Shown piece after piece: positions 5,695 through 53,731 of a stretch of DNA of 64,000 nucleotides. The DNA is taken from NCBI GenBank assembly GCA_035906255.1, contig JAMIFM010000022.1, positions 6,856 through 70,855 on the forward strand, in the 5' to 3' direction. This stretch comes from Bacteroidia bacterium. Its GTDB lineage: Bacteria; Bacteroidota; Bacteroidia; UBA8524. The translations under genes and the position numbers were made by a program. The notes under the pieces are model-generated. The model made no database searches. It was not told the DNA's origin and was given only the letters and a program-made list of their open reading frames with translations. How positions within the stretch are numbered: position 1 is the first letter of the stretch; every line of letters begins with the position of its first letter.

Positions 5695-6612
5695 TTAATC
5701 ATTAATGTGCTGCTCATAAATAGCTCCAGAACTAGAATGTATAAAGGGGTCTAACTCAGTCCTTAGATTACTTAAATCATCTAATTGATTGATAAATAAC
5801 TTAACAAATAGCATTTCTTCTTTTGTTAAATGGTTGTTTATAGCAAATCTTAAATAATCAAGTTTATCAGATGGTATATTACTATGTAAAATACACTTAT
5901 ATACTGCAATAAATTTATAAATAAGCGATTGAATATCATTATAGTACTTTTCTTTTTTTAAGGTGTTAAACATTGCATTAATAAGTTTATCAACTAATTT
6001 GTCACGTTCTTTAACACTTTTAAGTTCTAAGTTAGAATAATGTTGTTCAGCTATAGCATTTGTAAAACAAAGAGTAAGAAGAGTATTTTTAACTGTCTTA
6101 AAAGCATTTATTCCTTTATTATTATCAATAACAAAATTATCTCTACTATTCTCATACTTCTCAAGCAATTTGAATACGATACTCTCCAGCCGTTCTAATT
6201 TTGCGTTTTGTTCAGTGCGCTCCATGATAGCAGCACTGTTTTTCATTTCTTCAACAGATTGTTTTAGTGCATCCGATGCAGTTTTAAGTTCTTCTTTCTG
6301 CACTAAAAAGGAATTGTAAAGTAGTATAATAGTAATGAGGGATAATACAGGGGCAGCTATCCCATTAAAGAAATTACCTATTTTATCGAACTCTTTAATA
6401 CAAAGCAATTGGTTGATTACAATAAATAAAACAATCAATACGATGGTAATACCTATCACCCAACCAGTAAAGTTTCGACTCTTTTTATATTTAAATAAGG
6501 ACTTAAAATCATCTATTTTAGTAGCGTCTTCAATATGACTTGACAATTTTCTATACGAAAATAGAAACTCATAATTGGAATTTATTAACAAAAGGTAATA
6601 GCTTCTTGTCAT
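5695..6612 (-). CDS. low-GC membrane-anchored protein, possible abortive-infection (putAbiC-like) family; paralog of 51087..51836
   Basis: 305 aa. An N-terminal TM segment is followed by a conserved G-IAAPVLSLI-LLY-FL-Q block that is shared with the ORF at 51087, then a long coiled-coil-like region. Codon usage is very AT-rich relative to its neighbours. Confidence 0.45.
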   Translation of the reverse strand: MTRSYYLLLINSNYEFLFSYRKLSSHIEDATKIDDFKSLFKYKKSRNFTGWVIGITIVLIVLFIVINQLLCIKEFDKIGNFFNGIAAPVLSLITIILLYNSFLVQKEELKTASDALKQSVEEMKNSAAIMERTEQNAKLERLESIVFKLLEKYENSRDNFVIDNNKGINAFKTVKNTLLTLCFTNAIAEQHYSNLELKSVKERDKLVDKLINAMFNTLKKEKYYNDIQSLIYKFIAVYKCILHSNIPSDKLDYLRFAINNHLTKEEMLFVKLFINQLDDLSNLRTELDPFIHSSSGAIYEQHIND

Positions 6613-6845
6613 TCTGACCGAAGGGAAGAATCCTATTATAATTGTGTTAACAAAGCGATATAAGATGCTTCACTACCGTTCAGCAGGACAGGTAGTGAAC
6701 AATATTTGCTCCCTATGAACAGGTTGTCTCGTCAGCAGAAGACGAATTCCTCACAATGGTGCAAAGGATTAACCAATTTTTAAATTTTAAAATCTCCAAA
6801 TCAGTTAATTAAAGCAAATCGTCCTTCGGCAAGCTCAGGAGGGAT
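6605..6845. repeat. copy A of a mosaic intergenic repeat family
   Basis: It contains the modules gtcattctgaccgaagggaagaatcc and tccttcggcaagctcaggaggg. These recur at 11090-11610, 13030-13095, 41972-42180 and 49985-50345. Confidence 0.6.
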
Positions 6846-10341: not shown

Positions 10342-11073
10342 ATGAGTAAGGTAAGAATAAAAATTGCATTCTTAGGACATGTGCAACACAATATTAGTAA
10401 GGAAAAAATTTTGCGATGGAAATCCTCGTTATTTCTAATAAATGCTCCAATAGATACTTACACAATAAATAACAATTCAGATATAGATGATTGGAGTTAC
10501 TCGGATGTAACAATCCAAAATGAATTACCCACTAATTTCGACGGGGATATTCTAATAGCTATAACAAATGTACCGATAGAAGATAATTATTTTGCACGAA
10601 GGTTAACGAATAATAGACTTTGCCTCAGTTTACATGAAATGAGTGATATTTTAAAGTTAGATAATATACCACTTGAAAATTTGATTTTCAGAGTATGTTA
10701 TGCTTTATCTTTAATTTTCAAGGAATGCAATAAACTCCCCACAATAGCTGAATATTCTAAATTTACTCATGATGAAACCAAAGGATGTATCTTTGATATG
10801 AATGGTATAAAAACAGATATTATTTATTCTACGAATAAGCCAATATTATGTGATTCATGCAAAGAACGATTGAAAAAAGTGAAAATAGAAAGTAATCTTA
10901 TTGATGATATTCAGAGTGAACTAAACAAAATTAATAAAACATTATATTATAGAATTACTGACTTTGTGAAAAAAGAACCTGTTTGGTCTATACTTATCTC
11001 ATCTTTAGCTGCTATTGTATTAGGGACTATTGGTTCTTTAGTTGCGTCAGTTATTTTCGAAAAAATAAAATAA
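10342..11073 (+). CDS. hypothetical protein, soluble N-domain with single C-terminal TM anchor
   Basis: 243 aa and very AT-rich. The C-terminal hydrophobic helix is SILISSLAAIVLGTIGSLVASVIF. Cys pairs are present (CDSC). I recognise no family. Confidence 0.4.
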   Translation: MSKVRIKIAFLGHVQHNISKEKILRWKSSLFLINAPIDTYTINNNSDIDDWSYSDVTIQNELPTNFDGDILIAITNVPIEDNYFARRLTNNRLCLSLHEMSDILKLDNIPLENLIFRVCYALSLIFKECNKLPTIAEYSKFTHDETKGCIFDMNGIKTDIIYSTNKPILCDSCKERLKKVKIESNLIDDIQSELNKINKTLYYRITDFVKKEPVWSILISSLAAIVLGTIGSLVASVIFEKIK

Positions 11074-11089
11074 TTTTATATTTTAATTC

Positions 11090-11610
11090 TCCCGATTGGA
11101 GAATGTCGAAGTGGAGCAGAGGTGATGGTTGTTGCGGATAGAGAGAAAAAAGCAGAAACAATTTTCGTCATTGCGATAAAACCGTCTTCGGGTTTAGAAG
11201 CAATCCGTTTGCATAGTTTCAACGGGATTGCTTCAACCAAGCTGCGCAAGGCATTGCAATGACGGGGTGGTGTGTTTCTTAACTCACCCCAGCTATTGGC
11301 AAGACTTCGATTACTCAATTTCTCCCTCTCTATGCAAAAGAGAGGGACGACGTGGTGAACGTCGGGCTTTGTAATTATTCGGGGGTGAGTTAAAAGGCAC
11401 ACCTCCCTCAATCCCTCTTTATTCAAGGAGGGGAGCCACCCTGCAAGCCATTTACAGACGTACGAATATTTTGTCTAACCTGATAACTTTTAACAGATAA
11501 CCAATCTGTGAGCCAGTGCCGTTGCCAAGTTCCCCTCCTTGGTTGAGTTTGCGGGAAAGGCAAGGAGGGGTTAGGGGAGGGTCTTTTAAATCAACCTGCT
11601 TAGGCAATAC
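11090..11610. repeat. copy B (largest) of the mosaic intergenic repeat family
   Basis: GC-rich palindromic modules gtcattgcgataaaaccgtcttcgggtttagaagcaatccg, ggaggggag/ctcccctcc and agagggacgacgtgg. Its reverse complement is found at 50240-50290. Confidence 0.6.
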
Positions 11611-11613
11611 CGT

Positions 11614-12870
11614 TTATGTTCCCGGGGCTTGTAACTCAGCGTAAAAACCCTGAGGGTCTTCGCCAATATAGGTTATTGTACCTTTAAGCGTTTGCCCGTG
11701 ATTAAATGATGAAATATTAATGGCTTTAAGGTATCTACGAGGATTAAGTCCCATAAGCCATGTGCCGCTCGGCTTCCATATCGATCCCGCCGAGGGGTAA
11801 TACGCCTCTTTTACCATATAGCTATATTTATTGACAAGTGTAGCAATAACTTCCATTTCAGGCATGCTATCGTATTGTAAAGTACCTTTTAGCGTTTCTC
11901 CGTGATCATCACTAAATATATTCAGCTTTATTACGTGTTGTTTTAGGTAGCCGAATGTCCATCTGTTGATGGGGTTTTCCGGTAATTCTCCCAAGTCGAT
12001 TTGAACTTTATAATTGTTATGTATCAGTGCGTAAAGTACCTGCTGCTGGGTTTGCTCAAACATAAAGTTTCGCGTATTAAGACACCAGTTAATATAGTTT
12101 TTGAGTTGGAAATTCTCGGTGTTTGCTATATATGCATCTAATGCGGTTTGCGGCCCATCATCAAACTTAGACTTAACAATATAGGGAGCTTCAAACTCAG
12201 CCCCGTAAGTAAATAGTTGCTTGATTACCCCCCTAAAGAGATTTAATACATGATCGTGTCTACCTAATCTAAGGTTTACAAAATCAATATAGTTATTTAT
12301 GGTTGCTGTATCGGTATTACGATTGGTGGCGGGCGAAAGGGATAAGTAATAGGTGCCGTTCCAATTCCTAAAGTTTTCACTAATTATACTAAAAAAATAT
12401 TTAAAGTGATCTATACCGGTAGCTTCGCTAATGGGATTGTCCCAGAATACATCCAGTGCGTTTAATTTGTGATAAGACATAAATCCATAAAGATTGCTTG
12501 CAAATCGGTTTATATCTCTTTTAGGGTCGTCGGATACAAATAACTGGTTAATCATGTTTTTATCATTAGAAGCTAATGTAATTCCCAGTTTAATATTAGA
12601 GTTGTTTTCTTTGGCATCGCGTGTGAGGTTCTTCATATATATCGGACTGTCTGTTTGCAAGGTATATGAAGAACCATCCCCTTGGGGTATGGTGTATGCA
12701 CTTGTGGGAACAATCTTTACTGAGTACATATATAAAATATCTATACTTTGGTAAACATCATATTTGATAAGGTTTTGATAGCTGCTGTCAGGGTCGTCGT
12801 ACTTGGTTCCAAAAATGTCGTGCTCTAAATAAATCCAAGCGTTGGAAAGGTTTTGCGGGGTTGTTTGCAT
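11614..12870 (-). CDS. two-domain protein: GH18 (chitinase-like) TIM-barrel lacking the catalytic Glu, plus a C-terminal OAA-family lectin
   Basis: 418 aa. The N-terminal ~280 aa follow the GH18 strand pattern: AWIYLEH, IDILYMYSVKI, KLGITLAS and LNALDVFWDNP. The last is in place of DGxDxDWE. The C-terminal ~135 aa hold two internal repeats, SDDHGETLKGTLQY and NHGQTLKGTITYIGEDPQGF, that align with OAA repeats (GDDGQTLNGTMTYAGEGPIGF). No signal peptide. Confidence 0.6.
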   Translation of the reverse strand: MQTTPQNLSNAWIYLEHDIFGTKYDDPDSSYQNLIKYDVYQSIDILYMYSVKIVPTSAYTIPQGDGSSYTLQTDSPIYMKNLTRDAKENNSNIKLGITLASNDKNMINQLFVSDDPKRDINRFASNLYGFMSYHKLNALDVFWDNPISEATGIDHFKYFFSIISENFRNWNGTYYLSLSPATNRNTDTATINNYIDFVNLRLGRHDHVLNLFRGVIKQLFTYGAEFEAPYIVKSKFDDGPQTALDAYIANTENFQLKNYINWCLNTRNFMFEQTQQQVLYALIHNNYKVQIDLGELPENPINRWTFGYLKQHVIKLNIFSDDHGETLKGTLQYDSMPEMEVIATLVNKYSYMVKEAYYPSAGSIWKPSGTWLMGLNPRRYLKAINISSFNHGQTLKGTITYIGEDPQGFYAELQAPGT

Positions 12871-41971: not shown

Positions 41972-42180
41972 TGCCTTGGATTTCCTGAGTTTGCCGAAGG
42001 AGCCCTTCGACAAGCTCAGGAACCCGATTATCGTCATTGCGAGGAGGAGGCACGACGACGTGGCAATCTGTTTATATAGTTTGGACTGGATTGCTTCGGG
42101 AAGACCCTCGCTATGACGATAAAACACTGTCATGCTGACGTAGGAAGCACCTTATCCCGTTTTGTTAATAACAGTTGTAA
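41972..42180. repeat. copy D of the mosaic intergenic repeat family
   Basis: Modules ccttcgacaagctcagga, tcgtcattgcgaggagg, cctcgctatgacg and gtcatgctgacgtaggaagcacc. The last is the reverse complement of 50085-50110. Confidence 0.6.
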
Positions 42181-42262
42181 TAAGGTTCTTTCCTGTAGTC
42201 AGAAAGACAGGGGTATTTAGGGGTTAATTACAAATTGCTTATCTTTGCAAACTTTATAAAAA

Positions 42263-49984: not shown

Positions 49985-50345
49985 TTACTTTGCGTTGGTT
50001 TATGTGTTGATTTGCTTATCTCATCCCTGTCCTTCTGAGCGATAGCAAAGAATCCTACACCAACTGTGTTTACAAAGCGGGATAAGGTGTTTCCTTCGTC
50101 AGCATGACAATACCCCCTAAATCCCCTGTGGGGACTTTACCAACGACGTACCAGCGCGGTTGCCATCCTGAGAATGCCGAAGGGTGCGGCTGTTTCCCTC
50201 CTTGGGTGGTTAGTGGGTTGGTAAGAAGGGACTAAGGGAGGTGTCAAACGGATTGTTTCTAAACCCGAAGACGGTTTTTCGCAATGACGATAGTTGAGCG
50301 AGTGCGGGGCAGTTCTCCTGAGTTTATCGAAGGAGCGCGTATAGT
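49985..50345. repeat. copy E of the mosaic intergenic repeat family
   Basis: It contains the reverse complements of modules in copies B and D, and ends with the ctcctgagtttatcgaaggagc module that begins copy D. Confidence 0.6.
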
Positions 50346-50386: not shown

Positions 50387-51052
50387 ATGAATGTACAAGA
50401 AGTTCTTGCCCAACTGGAAGCCCTTGGCAATGCTAAACTGCGCGAGCAAAACAAAAAACGCGGTGCCGGTGAAAACCAATTTGGGGTAAAAATGGGTGAT
50501 ATACGCACCGTGGCTAAAAAGATAAAGACCAACCATGACCTTGCGCTGGAGCTATGGGAAACGGGAAACGTTGAGGCACGGCAAGTGGCAATATTAGTCG
50601 CAAACCCTAAAAAGCTGTCGTACGACGAAATAAGTCACTGGGTAAAATCAGAGAAATATACGTGGGTGGCTGACTGGCTATATTCATATATACTGAAAGA
50701 CAGGGCTGATAAAGAAACCCTGCGCCAAGAATGGATGCAAACCGACGATGTGATGGCTGCCCGCGCAGGCTGGAGTTTTACCAGCGGTTGTGTGGCACGC
50801 CAGCCTGAATTGGTGGATATACCCGCCCTGCTTGACCGTATTGAAAAAGAAATGCCCACCGCTACACCCGAAGTGCAATGGACAATGAACAGCACGCTGG
50901 CTAATATTGGCATACACCACCCGCAATACCGCGAACGTGCCTTGGCAATAGGGGAGAAGCTGGGCATTTACAGGGATTATCCCGTTTCGAAAGGCTGCAC
51001 TTCTCCCTTTGCCCCGATATGGATTGGGGAGATGGTTAAGAGGCAGGAGTGA
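50387..51052 (+). CDS. DNA alkylation repair (AlkC/AlkD-like HEAT-repeat) protein
   Basis: 221 aa. The segment DLALELWETGNVEARQVAILV...WVADW fits the DNA_alkylation family. Confidence 0.65.
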   Translation: MNVQEVLAQLEALGNAKLREQNKKRGAGENQFGVKMGDIRTVAKKIKTNHDLALELWETGNVEARQVAILVANPKKLSYDEISHWVKSEKYTWVADWLYSYILKDRADKETLRQEWMQTDDVMAARAGWSFTSGCVARQPELVDIPALLDRIEKEMPTATPEVQWTMNSTLANIGIHHPQYRERALAIGEKLGIYRDYPVSKGCTSPFAPIWIGEMVKRQE

Positions 51053-51086
51053 GGGAAGCTAAAAAATTTGATATTAACATTTTATA

Positions 51087-51836
51087 ATGAAAGAAAATCT
51101 TGATTATGCAATTTGGCTTTTGATAACAGGAATACTTGTTATTGTCCTTATGCCTATACTTTTGACTTCAAATTCATTTTGTGAGAGTCTAAATTTTACT
51201 AATACAGGACAAATTGGAGACACAATTGGGGGTATCACAGCTCCATTTTTGAGCTTAATTGGTTCTTTCCTAGTATATTTTGCTCTAAGAGCGCAAGTAA
51301 AAGCTAATGAATTAATTCAAACACAAATTGATGATACAAAAAAAGAAAAAACTAATGAAAGTGAAGGTGAAAACTTAAATCAGCTATACTTATATCTTAC
51401 AGAAAGTATTGATAATTTTCGTTTCAAATTCCTATCAATAGGCCATGTAGATAATACTAATGATAAGGAAACAGGTATAGAATACAAGGGGAGTGAGGCT
51501 ATTTATTATCTTTTTTCAAATATTTTTTGTGATTATCACGGTTCAGATGAGGATTTAAATTGTAATCCATCAGTTTCTGAACTATTAAGTACTTTGAAGA
51601 TTATGGATATATTGCTTGATAAATTGGAAAAAGCGGAAAGTAAGAATAAAGAAATTTTAATGATACTAGTAAGACATCAATTTAACTATAAAATTGAAAC
51701 TAGAATAAAGGAAGAGGATGAGGATGGGTTAAATCGCAAACAGTGTTCAATATGCAATTTTGAGCACGGGATTCCCAAAGAATTAAAAGACTTGATTATA
51801 AGTATAAGGAAAAAATTAACACATAATCTACGTTAA
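51087..51836 (+). CDS. low-GC membrane-anchored protein, paralog of 5695..6612 (possible abortive-infection family)
   Basis: 249 aa. An N-terminal TM segment is followed by the shared block IGDTIGGITAPFLSLIGSFLVYFALRAQ, which matches GIAAPVLSLITIILLYNSFLVQ in the ORF at 5695. Very AT-rich. Confidence 0.45.
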   Translation: MKENLDYAIWLLITGILVIVLMPILLTSNSFCESLNFTNTGQIGDTIGGITAPFLSLIGSFLVYFALRAQVKANELIQTQIDDTKKEKTNESEGENLNQLYLYLTESIDNFRFKFLSIGHVDNTNDKETGIEYKGSEAIYYLFSNIFCDYHGSDEDLNCNPSVSELLSTLKIMDILLDKLEKAESKNKEILMILVRHQFNYKIETRIKEEDEDGLNRKQCSICNFEHGIPKELKDLIISIRKKLTHNLR

Positions 51837-51841
51837 GCACA

Positions 51842-52270
51842 ATGCCAATGCCCACCCCTAAATCAAAACTTGTAGAAATTAAGACCAAGCCCACAGTCAT
51901 GAGCGTTGCGGAGTTTATTAGCAACATCAGCGAAGAGCAAAAGCGTAAAGACTGCCTTGTGATTTTAGAACTGATGAAAAAAGCTACAGGCGAAGAGCCT
52001 GTGCTGTGGGGTAACGGGACAATCGGGTTTGGAAATCTGCGGTATAAAAGCCCCGCAACGGGTAGGGAAGTGGATTGGTTTAAGATTGGGTTTGCTGCCC
52101 GCAAGGCCAATTTATCGCTGCACCTTACTATGGATATACAAAAACAAGCTGCAATGCTTGAACGGTTGGGCAAGCACAAAACAGGGGTGGGGTGTTTGTA
52201 TATCAACAAGTTAAGCGACGTTGATATAAACGTTTTGAATGAAATGATAGTACTTTCGGTAACAAAGTGA
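51842..52270 (+). CDS. DUF1801 (YdhG-like) domain protein
   Basis: 142 aa. The pattern VAEFI...KRKDCLVILELMKKATGEEPVLWG is typical of the family. Confidence 0.65.
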   Translation: MPMPTPKSKLVEIKTKPTVMSVAEFISNISEEQKRKDCLVILELMKKATGEEPVLWGNGTIGFGNLRYKSPATGREVDWFKIGFAARKANLSLHLTMDIQKQAAMLERLGKHKTGVGCLYINKLSDVDINVLNEMIVLSVTK

Positions 52271-52334
52271 GAGCAAACTACTTGTCAATTACCTATCTTT
52301 ATTTTTAAAATAGTAAGGGCAAGAAGATTGTAGT

Positions 52335-53174
52335 ATGCTAAAAGCGCTTTTTTTAAACAGGAATGAAACAACTGATGCTCTTCGTAAAAAGTCAGTTTTG
52401 ATAAACATAATTTTTTGCATAAGTGCTATGCAAACAGTTGCGCTAACCATCAATATGTTTGTTCAGCCTACATACATCGAACGGTATTTTCTTATTATCT
52501 TTTTGATTTATTCGTCAGGTTTTTTAGCCTATCTGCCTGCAAAAAGAGGTTATATATTTCTTAGCTCGTTTATTTATGTTGTGTTTTTGCTACTTCTGAT
52601 TTTTGTGTTTGCTTGGACGGGGGGAGGTATCCGCGCGCACGGAATGATTATATTGCCCGTTGTTGTAATGGTTGCCGGATTAACATTGGGACGCAAAGCC
52701 GTATGGGTTTTCGGGATATTTTCAACGCTGGGTGGGTTGGGTTTGGTGATTGCTGAATATTATTCATTACTACCATTAACACAGCCAATTGGCAAAACAC
52801 CATTGATTTATTGGATTTTTAACACTGCAAACGTTATCCTTATTTGTTTCCTACAATATTTGGGGGTTAAGGAATTAGTTGCGGCACTTAACGAAGCTAA
52901 AAAAGAACTTAAGCTGCGGAAAAAATCAGAAGAGGAGTTACGTATTAAGAATGAGCAGCTTACTGAGATTGCTTTCCTACAGTCGCACATCGTAAGAAAA
53001 CCCATTGCAAACGTACTTGGGGTTGTTAATTTAATAAACAAAGAGAACCCGCAAGACCCTGAAAATATTGAATTGATTTTGCAACTTGAGTTTGTTGTGG
53101 GAGAATTAGATGCAGCTGTTTGCGAGATTGTAAAAAATACATCAACAATAACACAAAAAGAAAACAAGCAATGA
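52335..53174 (+). CDS. polytopic membrane protein with a C-terminal HisKA-like segment but no ATPase domain
   Basis: 279 aa with six to seven TM helices, then a coiled coil, then FLQSHIVRKPIANVLG, which is an H-box-like phosphoacceptor. The ORF ends with no HATPase_c domain. Confidence 0.45.
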   Translation: MLKALFLNRNETTDALRKKSVLINIIFCISAMQTVALTINMFVQPTYIERYFLIIFLIYSSGFLAYLPAKRGYIFLSSFIYVVFLLLLIFVFAWTGGGIRAHGMIILPVVVMVAGLTLGRKAVWVFGIFSTLGGLGLVIAEYYSLLPLTQPIGKTPLIYWIFNTANVILICFLQYLGVKELVAALNEAKKELKLRKKSEEELRIKNEQLTEIAFLQSHIVRKPIANVLGVVNLINKENPQDPENIELILQLEFVVGELDAAVCEIVKNTSTITQKENKQ

Positions 53175-53731
53175 TAAAGAAAGATATATCCGTAATTCAA
53201 TTTACTGATTTACTGGAGGTTTTAAAAGTTAGATTCAATAAAAACATGAATCGTCATAAAGATATAGAATGGGCTAAAGTTCATGCAAAGCTGGAGGCTA
53301 ATATTGAGAAACTATGGAGTTTGAGTGAAATGGAAAACACCGGAGGAGAACCTGACGTTGTAGATTATGTTAAACAGATAGATGAATATATCTTTATGGA
53401 CTGTTCACCCGAAAGTCCTAAGGGGCGTAGAAGTATTTGCTATGACCATGAGGCACTGAATGCCCGCAAGGAGCATAAGCCGGCCAACAGTGCTATGAAT
53501 ATGGCAGCCGAGATGGGTATTGAAGTGCTGAACGAAGAACAATACAAACAATTGCAACAGTTGGGTAAATTTGATTTGAAAACATCAAGCTGGGTACAAA
53601 CGCCCACAGAAATCCGTAAGCTTGGCGGGGCCATTTTTTGCGATTGCAGATATAACCACGTATTTACGTACCACAACGGTGCAGAATCGTATTATGCAGC
53701 CAGAGGTTTTCGCGGGATGTTAAAAGTGTAA
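53171..53731 (+). CDS. DUF4256 family protein
   Basis: The start is taken at MIKKDIS, giving a 4-nt overlap with the upstream gene. The motif IEWAKVHAKLEAN...MENTGGEPDVV matches my memory of DUF4256. Confidence 0.55.
   Translation: MIKKDISVIQFTDLLEVLKVRFNKNMNRHKDIEWAKVHAKLEANIEKLWSLSEMENTGGEPDVVDYVKQIDEYIFMDCSPESPKGRRSICYDHEALNARKEHKPANSAMNMAAEMGIEVLNEEQYKQLQQLGKFDLKTSSWVQTPTEIRKLGGAIFCDCRYNHVFTYHNGAESYYAARGFRGMLKV

What the first reader, a model, noticed from the sequence alone, without database searches (positions are those of the whole stretch)
5695..6612. Low-GC membrane-anchored protein with a paralog 45 kb away: candidate abortive-infection/defense gene
The 305-aa protein has an N-terminal TM helix, a conserved glycine/proline block (NGIAAPVLSLITIILLYNSFLVQ) and a long coiled-coil-like C-terminal region. 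The ORF at 51087..51836 shares the same N-terminal architecture and block (IGGITAPFLSLIGSFLVYFALRAQ). Both are conspicuously AT-rich compared with their neighbours, and both lie next to a copy of the mosaic repeat. From memory, the architecture matches the Pfam family annotated as putative phage abortive infection protein (putAbiC). I treat that as a hypothesis only. Dispersed, divergent paralogs with foreign composition are typical of defense cargo.
Basis: partly seen in the sequence, partly recalled or inferred. Interest (0 to 1): 0.55.

Follow-up and report, generated by a model that had tools for sequence, protein, structure and literature searches.

The report
Two divergent putAbiC-like membrane cargo genes
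Two AT-rich genes 45 kb apart encode distantly related two-helix membrane proteins that share only their membrane-embedded front end with the 'putative phage abortive infection' family PF16872; they sit in variable cargo slots and look like untested single-gene phage-defence candidates, not recognised members of that family.

Summary
Both ORFs exist and are extreme low-GC outliers (0.280 and 0.291; window ORF mean 0.400, sd 0.043). They are real but very distant relatives: 21% identity, and independently significant similarity is confined to a 2-TM module with the motif G-Q-[IL]-G-D-x-x-[GN]-G-I-[TA]-A-P...Q. AlphaFold models of both show the same element order.

Neither ORF, nor about 180 relatives, nor six sub-cluster consensus sequences hit PF16872 or the PADLOC AbiC/AbiP models. 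A positive control (viral proteins with the same module) returned 120 of 120 PF16872-labelled hits. Profile-profile comparison shows that both families share the N-terminal 90-125 residues with true PF16872 proteins (B: 99.6%, E 2e-24; A: 94%, E 1e-7). Both lack the PF16872 C-terminal signature domain. I conclude they are Pfam-less sister families of putAbiC.

The cargo idea has circumstantial support. ORF A orthologs are 51-62% identical between flanks that are 92-99% identical, and most of the divergence lies in a 70-residue hypervariable cassette. ORF B interrupts a widespread AlkD-DUF4256 gene pair, and the closest relative carries different AT-rich genes in that slot. Some homologs lie in R-M/Kiwa/PLD or toxin-antitoxin islands, and some on viral contigs. 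A defence function is inferred, not shown. The annotated ATG of ORF A lies inside a REP-like repeat and is probably spurious.

The parts
5695..6612 (-). ORF A as annotated (305 aa). The probable real CDS is 5695..6546 (TTG start, 283 aa) or 5695..6534 (ATT start, 279 aa).
   Evidence: ORF listed. All 11 homologs start at the position of residue 27. The ATG at 6612-6610 lies inside REP-like unit 6633-6607. GC 0.280, GC3 0.232.
6397..6471 (-). ORF A TM1 (residues 48-72). Poorly conserved, anchor-like.
   Evidence: Hydropathy and conservation (mean pairwise identity 0.43). Helix 17-43 of the trimmed model.
6298..6390 (-). ORF A signature loop and TM2 (residues 75-105: FDKIGNFFNGIAAPVLSLITIILLYNSFLVQ). 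This is the superfamily core. The otherwise near-invariant Asp is Asn here.
   Evidence: Identity among orthologs is 0.80 (loop) and 0.97 (TM2). hhalign to family B TM module 95.8% E 7.7e-9. hhalign to the PF16872 TM module 94% E 1.5e-7. The D-to-N change is shared with P0002.
6142..6297 (-). ORF A stalk and membrane-proximal helices (residues 106-157), including AKLERLESIVFKLLEKY, which matches the 'LERFE' helix of PF16872 proteins.
   Evidence: TM2 continues as one 83-residue helix. Collinear hhalign match to PF16872 members. Mean identity 0.72.
5926..6141 (-). ORF A hypervariable cassette (residues 158-229).
   Evidence: Mean pairwise identity is 0.25, falling to 0.15-0.22 for residues 162-206, with indels. 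The rest of the protein is at 0.66-0.97.
5698..5925 (-). ORF A conserved C-terminal helical domain (residues 230-305).
   Evidence: Identity 0.66-0.79. Helices at pLDDT about 90. No match to the PF16872 C-terminal signature.
6613..6844 (.). Cluster of REP-like 'mosaic' repeat units filling the IcmF-ORF A intergenic region. It overlaps the annotated start codon.
   Evidence: Sequence read. Pattern matches at 6613-6629 and 6823-6839. Related units at 50034-50333 and 41984-42203.
51087..51836 (+). ORF B (249 aa), tightly packed between the AlkD-like gene (35-bp gap) and the DUF1801 gene (6-bp gap).
   Evidence: GC 0.291, GC3 0.200. 213 homologs, none with a Pfam label. AlphaFold pLDDT 91.7.
51111..51167 (+). 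ORF B TM1 (residues 9-27).
   Evidence: Helix 2-27 in the model. Hydropathy.
51204..51296 (+). ORF B signature loop and TM2 (residues 40-70: TGQIGDTIGGITAPFLSLIGSFLVYFALRAQ).
   Evidence: G44, D45, G48, G49, P53 and Q70 are invariant in 41 of 41 sequences and 96-100% conserved in 127 diverse relatives. hhalign to the PF16872 TM module 99.5% E 2e-22.
51297..51695 (+). ORF B cytoplasmic stalk helix (continuous with TM2 to residue 109), beta-hairpin (110-134) and helical bundle (135-203) with invariant G135.
   Evidence: Model. G135 is invariant. The collinear match to PF16872 members ends at about residue 145.
51744..51776 (+). ORF B CxxCxxxHG-P knuckle (residues 220-230). A candidate metal site. 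Absent from family A and from PF16872 proteins.
   Evidence: C220 39/41, C223 39/41, H227 40/41, H151 33/41. Short beta elements in the model. Metal binding is inferred only.
50034..50333 (.). REP-like repeat cluster upstream of the AlkD-like gene that precedes ORF B.
   Evidence: (I1, I3).

Best explanation
ORF A and ORF B are two anciently diverged members of a large, mostly unannotated superfamily of inner-membrane proteins. The defining part is an N-in/C-in two-helix hairpin. Its outer loop and second helix carry the motif G-Q-[IL]-G-D-x-x-G-G-I-T-A-P...Q, and TM2 runs without a break into a long cytoplasmic stalk helix, a small beta-hairpin and a helical bundle. Pfam PF16872 ('putative phage abortive infection protein', putAbiC) is one branch of this superfamily. 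ORF A and ORF B belong to two other branches that keep the membrane module and stalk but carry different C-terminal domains: a hypervariable cassette plus helical domain in A, and a Cys2-His knuckle in B.

Both are accessory genes sitting in bounded variable slots between conserved core genes. I consider it most likely (not shown) that each is a stand-alone phage-resistance protein of the AbiC/AbiP/PdpSau type. In this model the variable cytoplasmic domain recognises a phage product. The signal passes along the rigid TM2-stalk helix, and the strongly constrained GDxxGG-TM2 element acts on the membrane by oligomerisation, leak or depolarisation, or by blocking genome entry, so that infection fails.

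Shown here: homology of the N-terminal module, the shared architecture, the accessory/variable-slot status, the mosaic hypervariability, and viral carriage of relatives. Inferred: the topology, the sensor/effector division of labour, and any anti-phage activity.
For: Superfamily and PF16872 relationship. Both ORFs hit phrog_8999. The exhaustive profile search gives 4,457 representative clusters at E<=1e-3. hhalign against 120 genuine PF16872 proteins gives B 99.6% E 1.9e-24 over 125 columns and A 94.3% E 1e-7 over 92 columns. The positive control shows that those proteins are PF16872 and are named 'putative phage abortive infection protein'.

Shared architecture. Both AlphaFold models run TM1, loop, TM2 plus stalk helix, beta-hairpin, helical bundle (pLDDT 91.7 and 83.2).

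TM2 is more than an anchor. In family A, TM2 is 97% and the motif 80% identical, against 43% for TM1. G, D, G, G, P and Q are invariant across 127 diverse relatives.

Accessory and hypervariable behaviour. ORF A orthologs are syntenic but 51-62% identical, while IcmF, MFS and GAF are 92-99% identical. Nucleotide identity drops from 86-93% to 68-70% exactly at the gene borders. Divergence is concentrated in residues 158-229. Different extra genes share the slot.

ORF B as an insertion. AlkD-like and DUF4256 genes are adjacent in 36 of 80 genomes. None of the 80 has ORF B there. The closest relative has other AT-rich cargo in the same place.

Defence association. Homologs lie beside type I R-M with embedded Kiwa and PLDc_2/DUF4407 (L015), in a ParDE/HigB/RadC/transposase island (L012), and after a kinase-vWA-PP2C cassette (L016). 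29 IMG/VR viral contigs carry the module, including four distinct full-length B-type proteins.

Literature analogues. AbiC has 2 TM helices, AbiP has 1 TM helix, and they are grouped as AbiC/P. AbiP needs its TM helix and is triggered by a phage tail protein (PMC13064643). PdpSau is membrane-anchored and depolarises the membrane on infection (PMC10127798).
Against: No anti-phage activity has been measured for these proteins, and as far as I could find none for any PF16872 member. The family name itself says 'putative'.

No hit to the PADLOC AbiC or AbiP models for the ORFs or for consensus sequences. The 2-4 of 127 marginal hits did not generalise. I could not verify with these tools that PF16872 is related to lactococcal AbiC; no Lactococcus record was hit.

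About half of the sampled contexts are ordinary housekeeping neighbourhoods (L010/11, L013, L018). The only plasmid context is an msrA/msrB oxidative-stress island, where the homolog follows an AraC regulator by 3 bp.

ORF A is retained at one chromosomal site across a lineage, which also fits a host function. ORF A has lost the conserved ATG and carries Asn in place of the near-invariant Asp.

Structure searches gave only generic helical-bundle matches.
Confidence: 0.5

Rival explanations
1. They are accessory membrane proteins with a function unrelated to phage, such as an envelope or stress-response sensor or regulator. The conserved hairpin would mediate signalling or assembly, and the fast evolution would reflect relaxed constraint or niche adaptation.
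For: The plasmid homolog is translationally coupled (3-bp gap) to an AraC regulator inside a conserved msrA/msrB/glutaredoxin island. An AraC-type gene also follows the ORF A ortholog in L007. Several homologs sit among housekeeping genes. ORF A is kept at the same locus in all four related genomes found. No defence HMM matches.
Against: Relaxed constraint does not explain 97% identity in TM2 beside 15-22% in the cassette. It also does not explain carriage on viral contigs, the homology to PF16872 proteins, or the defence and TA-island contexts. No partner gene is conserved across contexts.
Confidence: 0.25
2. They are prophage- or mobile-element-derived superinfection-exclusion proteins. They would block phage genome entry at the inner membrane through the periplasmic loop and TM2, rather than killing or arresting the infected cell.
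For: Both ORFs match a PHROG family. Relatives occur on 29 IMG/VR contigs. A PF16872-type protein is annotated as a 'putative lysogenic conversion protein' in the cargo region of a P2-like phage. The most conserved residues lie at the outer-leaflet end of TM2. The architecture is that of a small 2-TM inner-membrane protein.
Against: No phage genes or integrase flank either ORF in the window. The neighbours are IcmF, MFS, AlkD-like and DUF1801. The large, conserved, partly hypervariable cytoplasmic domain suggests intracellular sensing. The characterised analogues AbiP and PdpSau act after DNA entry (PMC13064643, PMC10127798).
Confidence: 0.15
3. ORF A is an inactivated remnant: an open frame preserved by chance after loss of its start codon and of a key motif residue.
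For: Where all 11 homologs have Met, ORF A has ATT (Ile). The only upstream ATG lies inside a REP-like repeat. The near-invariant Asp of the motif is Asn.
Against: The frame is open for 279-305 codons with no frameshift. All conserved blocks are intact (TM2 is identical to the family consensus). An in-frame TTG lies four codons upstream of the expected start. The closest homolog P0002 also has Asn and keeps a normal ATG. 2 of 127 diverse relatives also have Asn there.
Confidence: 0.12
4. The two ORFs are unrelated, and their similarity is the generic resemblance of hydrophobic TM segments.
For: The soluble domains alone give hhalign probability 0.2%. Overall identity is only 21%.
Against: The shared block is a specific polar/Gly/Pro motif with invariant G, D, G, G, P and Q, not generic hydrophobicity. 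Other evidence: TM-module hhalign E 7.7e-9; both hit the same PHROG; a collinear 171-column alignment with the diverse profile, E 3e-10; the same element order in both models.
Confidence: 0.02

Closest known systems
Pfam PF16872 (putAbiC, 'putative phage abortive infection protein')
   Same: Homologous N-terminal 90-125 residues: TM1, the G-x-I-G-D-T-I-G-G motif, TM2 with invariant Pro and Gln, the 'LERFE' stalk helix, a beta-hairpin and a G..A helix. Similar size (250-400 aa). Found in Bacteroidota and on viral contigs and plasmids.
   Different: Neither ORF nor any of about 180 relatives scores against the PF16872 HMM. The PF16872 C-terminal signature (LGHYFRHLY ... LRAQLSxxEQxLLFYN) is absent. 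Family A has its own C-terminal helical domain and a hypervariable cassette. Family B has a CxxCxxxHG knuckle.
Lactococcal AbiC/AbiP group (AbiC/P; PMC13064643)
   Same: Single-gene systems. N-terminal membrane anchor (two TM helices in AbiC, as here) plus a cytoplasmic helical domain of about 250-340 aa. AT-rich accessory genes. Proposed logic: a membrane-anchored protein activated by a phage structural protein.
   Different: No significant match of the ORFs or family consensus sequences to the PADLOC AbiC or AbiP models. Only 2-4 of 127 relatives gave marginal hits. No nucleic-acid-binding domain was identified. Different phylum. The homology of PF16872 to lactococcal AbiC rests on the Pfam name and was not verified here.
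PdpSau of Staphylococcus aureus prophages (PMC10127798)
   Same: A small membrane-anchored protein carried as accessory or prophage cargo. It causes membrane depolarisation and abortive infection, which is the effector mode proposed here.
   Different: PdpSau has a single TM helix and an OB-fold-like positively charged C-terminal domain. No sequence or fold match was detected.
PHROG phrog_8999 (unknown function)
   Same: Both ORFs match it (A E 3e-10 over residues 53-266; B E 1.2e-11 over residues 11-91). This gives an independent grouping of the two proteins with phage- or prophage-encoded relatives.
   Different: The PHROG has no annotated function. ORF B matches only through the membrane module.

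Membership tests
Pfam PF16872 (putAbiC) | Score against the PF16872 HMM at or above the gathering threshold | tested here: not met
   No PF16872 hit at E<=1 to 10 for ORF A, ORF B, 53 close relatives, 127 distant relatives, the plasmid homolog or 6 consensus sequences. None of the 132 listed homologs carries a precomputed PF16872 label. In the positive control, 120 of 120 hits to the viral-type profile carry PF16872.11.
Pfam PF16872 (putAbiC) | N-terminal two-TM hairpin with the G-x-I-G-D-T-I-G-G motif and invariant Pro/Gln in TM2 (observed in the members retrieved here) | tested here: met
   hhalign TM module against 120 true members: B 99.5% E 2e-22, A 94% E 1.5e-7. ORF A deviates at two positions (GNFFNG).
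Pfam PF16872 (putAbiC) | C-terminal domain with the conserved LGHYFRHLY and LRAQLSxxEQxLLFYN motifs (invariant in alignment A5) | tested here: not met
   Profile-profile alignments to true members stop at about residue 145 (B) and 180 (A). Soluble-only comparisons match only the stalk/beta/G..A element (P = 0.01 and 5e-4), not the C-terminal motifs.
Lactococcal AbiC / AbiP (PADLOC models PDLC02343, PDLC02351) | Significant match to the AbiC or AbiP HMM | tested here: not met
   No hit at E<=1 for either ORF or for 6 family consensus sequences and the plasmid homolog. Among 127 relatives, AbiP matched 4 (best 4.2e-5) and AbiC matched 2 (best 5.5e-4). These are marginal hits that did not generalise.
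Lactococcal AbiC / AbiP (AbiC/P group) | N-terminal transmembrane anchor (1-2 helices) with a cytoplasmic soluble domain, encoded as a single gene | tested here: met
   Two TM helices and a helical cytoplasmic domain appear in both models. No conserved partner gene was found across 12 contexts.
Lactococcal AbiC / AbiP (AbiC/P group) | Experimentally shown abortive-infection phenotype; for AbiP, nucleic-acid binding and activation by a phage tail protein | not testable with these tools
   This requires phage challenge and biochemistry. The literature basis is PMC13064643.
Defence-island cargo (guilt by association) | Recurrent location next to known defence systems or within variable hot spots | tested here: inconclusive
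   Variable-slot status is shown for both window loci. Defence or TA neighbours appear in 3 of about 9 independent family B contexts (L012, L015, L016). Ordinary neighbours appear in the others. No background control could be run.
PHROG phrog_8999 | Significant match to the PHROG profile | tested here: met
   A E 3e-10 (residues 53-266) and B E 1.2e-11 (residues 11-91).

The most novel reading that the evidence does not exclude
The GDxxGG two-helix hairpin is a portable membrane effector module that evolution has fused to at least three unrelated or unrecognisably diverged cytoplasmic sensor domains: the PF16872 type, the A type with a hypervariable cassette, and the B type with a Cys2-His knuckle. 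This would form a large (more than 4,000 clusters), almost entirely unannotated superfamily of single-protein phage sensors. In ORF A's lineage, the 70-residue cassette would be the phage-specificity determinant, diversifying or being swapped at a fixed chromosomal hot spot while TM2 stays 97% identical.
Probability: 0.3. Interest if true: 0.65.

Novelty: new variant of a known kind. Interest (0 to 1): 0.45.

Why it matters
If these proteins are anti-phage, two sizeable families (plus thousands of related clusters) that Pfam, PADLOC and NCBIfam all miss would be added to the single-gene membrane Abi repertoire, especially in Bacteroidota, where defence is under-studied. The conservation pattern gives an unusually clean, testable dissection of effector and sensor: an almost invariant TM2 and motif, a rigid stalk helix, and one hypervariable cassette. 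That could help explain how the poorly understood AbiC/AbiP/PdpSau-type proteins couple phage recognition to membrane damage. If they are not anti-phage, the result still matters. It shows that the 'putative phage abortive infection' label spreads by resemblance of a membrane module alone, and that low GC in this family is intrinsic rather than a marker of recent transfer.

Tried and rejected
(1) Direct Pfam, NCBIfam and PADLOC scans of the ORFs, of every family member and of consensus sequences gave no Abi or PF16872 hit. The weak EII-GUT, FtsK_4TM and holin hits are TM-composition noise below threshold.

(2) tblastn of ORF B and of the superfamily consensus against phage records found nothing. 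Against plasmids it found only one msr island carried on many plasmids.

(4) I tested the third AT-rich ORF (10342..11073) as a possible third paralog and rejected it (hhalign 3.9%; no Pfam or PADLOC hit).

(5) I tried to obtain real lactococcal AbiC or AbiP sequences for a direct profile test. The papers held do not give sequences or held supplements, and the PF16872 consensus hit no Lactococcus record. The PF16872-to-AbiC link therefore stays unverified.

(6) The literature search for 'putAbiC' or 'PF16872' returned zero papers. The 'AbiC' mention in the integron preprint refers to a different Pfam family, Abi_C/AbiJ.

(7) The exact-sequence contig look-up for ORF B found nothing on record.

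(8) I rejected recent horizontal arrival as the explanation for low GC. The gene is 7-12 GC points below its surroundings in every host examined, including syntenic orthologs.
Full report
OBSERVATION. Both ORFs are present as described: 5695..6612 (-) encodes 305 aa and 51087..51836 (+) encodes 249 aa. Their composition is extreme. GC is 0.280 and 0.291, and GC3 is 0.23 and 0.20, against a mean of 0.400 (sd 0.043) for 47 long ORFs in the window. They rank first and third lowest. The second lowest is an unrelated ORF at 10342..11073.

The 'mosaic repeat' is real. Short REP-like units of the type TGTCAT[TG]CTGAC(C)GAAGG... cluster at 6613-6839, 41984-42203 and 50034-50333, with a further arm at 11178. 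The pattern count was 10 against 2.3 +/- 1.5 in shuffles. One cluster abuts ORF A. Another lies one gene upstream of ORF B.

ORF A START. The ATG at 6612-6610 lies inside a repeat unit (6633-6607, ggattcttcccttcggtcagaATGaca). A nearly identical unit ending in ATGACA occurs at 50089-50109 without any ORF. All eleven homologs start 26 codons further in, at MEEA. At that position ORF A reads ATT-GAA-GAC-GCT, and an in-frame TTG lies four codons upstream at 6546. The 305-aa product is therefore probably an annotation artefact. The likely product is 279-283 aa.

ARE THE TWO PROTEINS RELATED? BLASTP gives 21% identity over 196 residues, E 3e-6. Both hit the same PHROG, phrog_8999 (E 3e-10 and 1.2e-11). 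Alignment of 50 sequences shows a shared core: TM1, a short loop, G-Q-[IL]-G-D-x-x-[GN]-G-I-[TA]-A-P opening TM2, and an invariant Gln at its end.

Profile-profile tests localise the signal. For family A against family B the full-length result is 93.7%, E 1.9e-7, but over only 53 columns. The TM module alone gives 95.8%, E 7.7e-9. The soluble domains alone give 0.2%, E 0.28. Against a profile of 127 diverse superfamily representatives, family A aligns collinearly over 171 columns (96.8%, E 3e-10). Its soluble part alone reaches only P = 0.007.

AlphaFold models of ORF B (pLDDT 91.7) and ORF A (pLDDT 83.2) have the same order of elements. These are TM1, loop, TM2 continuing as one very long helix (67 and 83 residues), a short beta-hairpin and a helical bundle. 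So the two ORFs are ancient relatives with a common architecture, not recent paralogs. At sequence level, only the membrane module is demonstrably homologous between them.

THE PF16872 / Abi CLAIM. Neither ORF hits PF16872 or any other Abi family in Pfam, NCBIfam or PADLOC. The same holds for 53 close homologs, 127 distant representatives, a plasmid homolog and six sub-cluster consensus sequences at E<=10. In PADLOC, 4 of 127 relatives touched AbiP (best 4.2e-5) and 2 touched AbiC (best 5.5e-4).

The positive control came from viral contigs. A scan with the superfamily alignment found 29 IMG/VR loci encoding the [IV]GDTIGG module. Many of these proteins continue into a domain with the motifs LGHYFRHLY and LRAQLSxxEQxLLFYN. 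A profile of them retrieved 2,370 proteins. All 120 listed carry PF16872.11, and NCBI names them 'putative phage abortive infection protein' (PGAP uses the same name on plasmids).

hhalign against those 120 genuine members gives 99.6%, E 1.9e-24 over 125 columns for family B, and 94.3%, E 1e-7 over 92 columns for family A. Both alignments end after the stalk/beta/G..A element, and neither reaches the PF16872 C-terminal signature. A visible shared piece beyond the membrane is AKLERLESIVFKLLEKY (A) against IALERFESNLFQLIQIQ (PF16872).

The conclusion is that ORF A and ORF B belong to two Pfam-less sister families of putAbiC. They share the N-terminal 90-125 residues and differ in the rest. This also explains why one homolog, P0085 (A0A1N7QPJ4), carries the UniRef name 'Phage abortive infection protein' although RefSeq calls it hypothetical.

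The superfamily is large. There are 4,457 representative clusters at E<=1e-3 and 1,979 at E<=1e-10. No member has a solved structure, and fold searches return only generic helical bundles.

CONTEXT AND EVOLUTION OF ORF A. Four homologs from related Bacteroidota assemblies (L006, L007, L009, L020) lie in the same position, between the fused IcmF-like mutase and the MFS/GAF genes, or beside one of these flanks where only one was recovered. IcmF, MFS and GAF are 92-99% identical to the window proteins. The ORF A orthologs are only 51-62% identical. For L006 against L009 the figures are 98.9% and 51.7%.

At nucleotide level the flanks are 86-93% identical. Identity falls to 68-70% exactly at the IcmF stop codon and at the MFS gene end, and different extra genes share the slot. 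These include 376-, 293- and 195-aa proteins without Pfam matches and a Por_Secre_tail protein. L009 has a DndB-domain gene on the other side of IcmF.

Divergence within the protein is mosaic. Mean pairwise identity is 0.43 in TM1, 0.80 in the motif loop, 0.97 in TM2, 0.72 in the stalk, 0.15-0.22 in residues 162-206 (with indels), and 0.66-0.79 in the C-terminal domain. A TM helix twice as conserved as its neighbour is not a passive anchor. A 70-residue hypervariable cassette inside a constrained scaffold is what one expects of a specificity determinant under diversifying selection or cassette exchange.

CONTEXT OF ORF B. ORF B is wedged between an AlkD-like DNA_alkylation gene (35-bp gap) and a DUF1801 gene (6-bp gap). 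Among 80 genomes carrying the AlkD-like gene, 36 have DUF4256 immediately downstream of it. In the window, ORF B, DUF1801 and a 279-aa membrane protein separate that pair. None of the 80 has an ORF B homolog there.

The closest relative (L050, AlkD 92% identical) has three different genes in the ORF B slot. Two look DUF488-like by eye, and one is a 205-aa unknown. They are also AT-rich (GC 0.32-0.37, against 0.41-0.50 for the flanking genes).

Elsewhere family B is a solo gene in varied settings:
- after ClpB (L013);
- beside peptidase M20 in Chryseobacterium (L010, L011);
- in a ParDE/HigB/RadC/Y1-transposase island (L012);
- between type I R-M with embedded KwaA/KwaB and PLDc_2/DUF4407 (L015);
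- after a kinase-vWA-PP2C cassette (L016);
- next to DUF4062 (L019);
- on proteobacterial plasmids, 3 bp after an AraC regulator in an msrA/msrB/glutaredoxin island.

The gene is 7-12 GC points below its surroundings in every host examined. Low GC is therefore a family trait and not a time stamp.

MECHANISM (INFERRED). The positive-inside rule places the N-terminus and the C-terminal domain in the cytoplasm, and the motif loop at the outer face. The N-flank has 2.6-3.3 Lys+Arg, against about 1 in the loop. TM2 and the stalk form one continuous helix, which is a plausible rigid transmitter. Family B has conserved C220, C223 and H227 (39-40 of 41) and H151 (33 of 41). This suggests a metal site that clamps the C-terminal knuckle to the bundle.

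The AbiC/P group offers an analogy: AbiC has two TM helices, and AbiP needs its TM helix and is activated by a phage major tail protein (PMC13064643). So does PdpSau, which is membrane-anchored and depolarises the membrane on Kayvirus infection (PMC10127798). By analogy I propose that the cytoplasmic domain senses a phage product and the GDxxGG-TM2 element then compromises the membrane or blocks entry. None of this has been tested. I put the defence reading at about 0.5. The main rival is a non-phage accessory membrane function, suggested by the AraC/msr context and the housekeeping neighbourhoods.

VERDICT. The ORFs are not members of PF16872, AbiC or AbiP by any HMM, but they are demonstrably sister families that share the putAbiC membrane module and behave as hypervariable cargo in bounded slots. 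Novelty: a new variant of a known (and itself only putative) kind. Interest is moderate, at 0.45.

Noticed in passing
window 10342..11073 (+): A third extreme low-GC ORF (243 aa, GC 0.281, GC3 0.209), the second lowest of 47. It has a C-terminal TM helix and a CDSC motif. It lies between the IcmF-like gene and a REP-like repeat arm (11178-11211). It is not related to ORF A or B (hhalign 3.9%) and has no Pfam or PADLOC hit. It may be another piece of foreign cargo on the other side of IcmF.
   Followed up: partly
window 6613-6839, 11178-11211, 41984-42203, 50034-50333: REP-like 'mosaic' repeat units (core TGTCAT[TG]CTGAC(C)GAAGG / CCTGAG-N5-CGAAGG) cluster in a few intergenic regions. Three of the four sites lie next to, or one gene from, the three most AT-rich ORFs. 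One unit supplies the spurious ATG of ORF A. No Rfam family matches.
   Followed up: partly
window 50387..53731; loci L051-L129: The AlkD-like DNA_alkylation gene and the DUF4256 gene are immediate neighbours in 36 of 80 genomes from several phyla (Bacteroidota, Acidobacteriota, Planctomycetota). This suggests a conserved functional pair. In the window the pair is split by three inserted genes.
   Followed up: partly
L050 2295..4012: In the closest relative, the slot occupied by ORF B holds two tandem ORFs that look DUF488-like (201 and 178 aa; judged by eye, not scanned) and a 205-aa unknown, all AT-rich (GC 0.32-0.37). The contig is labelled 'Agrobacterium sp.' MAG, but its genes are Bacteroidota-like (AlkD 92% identical to the window). 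It is probably mis-binned.
   Followed up: no
L015 1..9372: A compact defence island: type I R-M (HsdS, HsdR) with KwaA/KwaB (Kiwa) inserted between the S and R genes, then a family B homolog, then PLDc_2 (427 aa) and DUF4407 (384 aa).
   Followed up: no
L001-L005 (IncC/IncA and Acinetobacter plasmids): A family member (246 aa, 22-26% identical to ORF B) is conserved 3 bp downstream of an AraC regulator in a mobile msrA/msrB/glutaredoxin oxidative-stress island. The island is spread across Acinetobacter, Shewanella, Klebsiella, Citrobacter and Raoultella plasmids. This association points away from phage defence and remains unexplained.
   Followed up: partly
window 11614..12870 (-): A 418-aa protein that combines a glycoside hydrolase family 18 domain with a C-terminal OAA-family lectin sugar-binding domain (Pfam E 5.9e-9 and 1.7e-7). 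This is an unusual chitinase-lectin fusion, in a low-GC stretch.
   Followed up: no
P0191 (540 aa): A representative in which the whole family B-type module occupies residues 248-518, behind an N-terminal ~250-residue extension with no Pfam or PADLOC match. This looks like a natural fusion that might hint at a partner function.
   Followed up: no
window 52335..53174 and 53120..53731: The 279-aa multi-TM protein with a coiled-coil C-terminus overlaps the listed TTG start of the DUF4256 ORF by 55 bp. The L050 ortholog starts near residue 17, so the DUF4256 start is probably further downstream than listed.
   Followed up: no
phage record AJ512679.1 (P2-EC45): A protein matching only the C-terminal PF16872 signature domain is annotated as a 'putative lysogenic conversion protein' in the variable cargo region of a P2-like coliphage. 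This suggests that the PF16872 C-terminal domain also travels as phage cargo.
   Followed up: no
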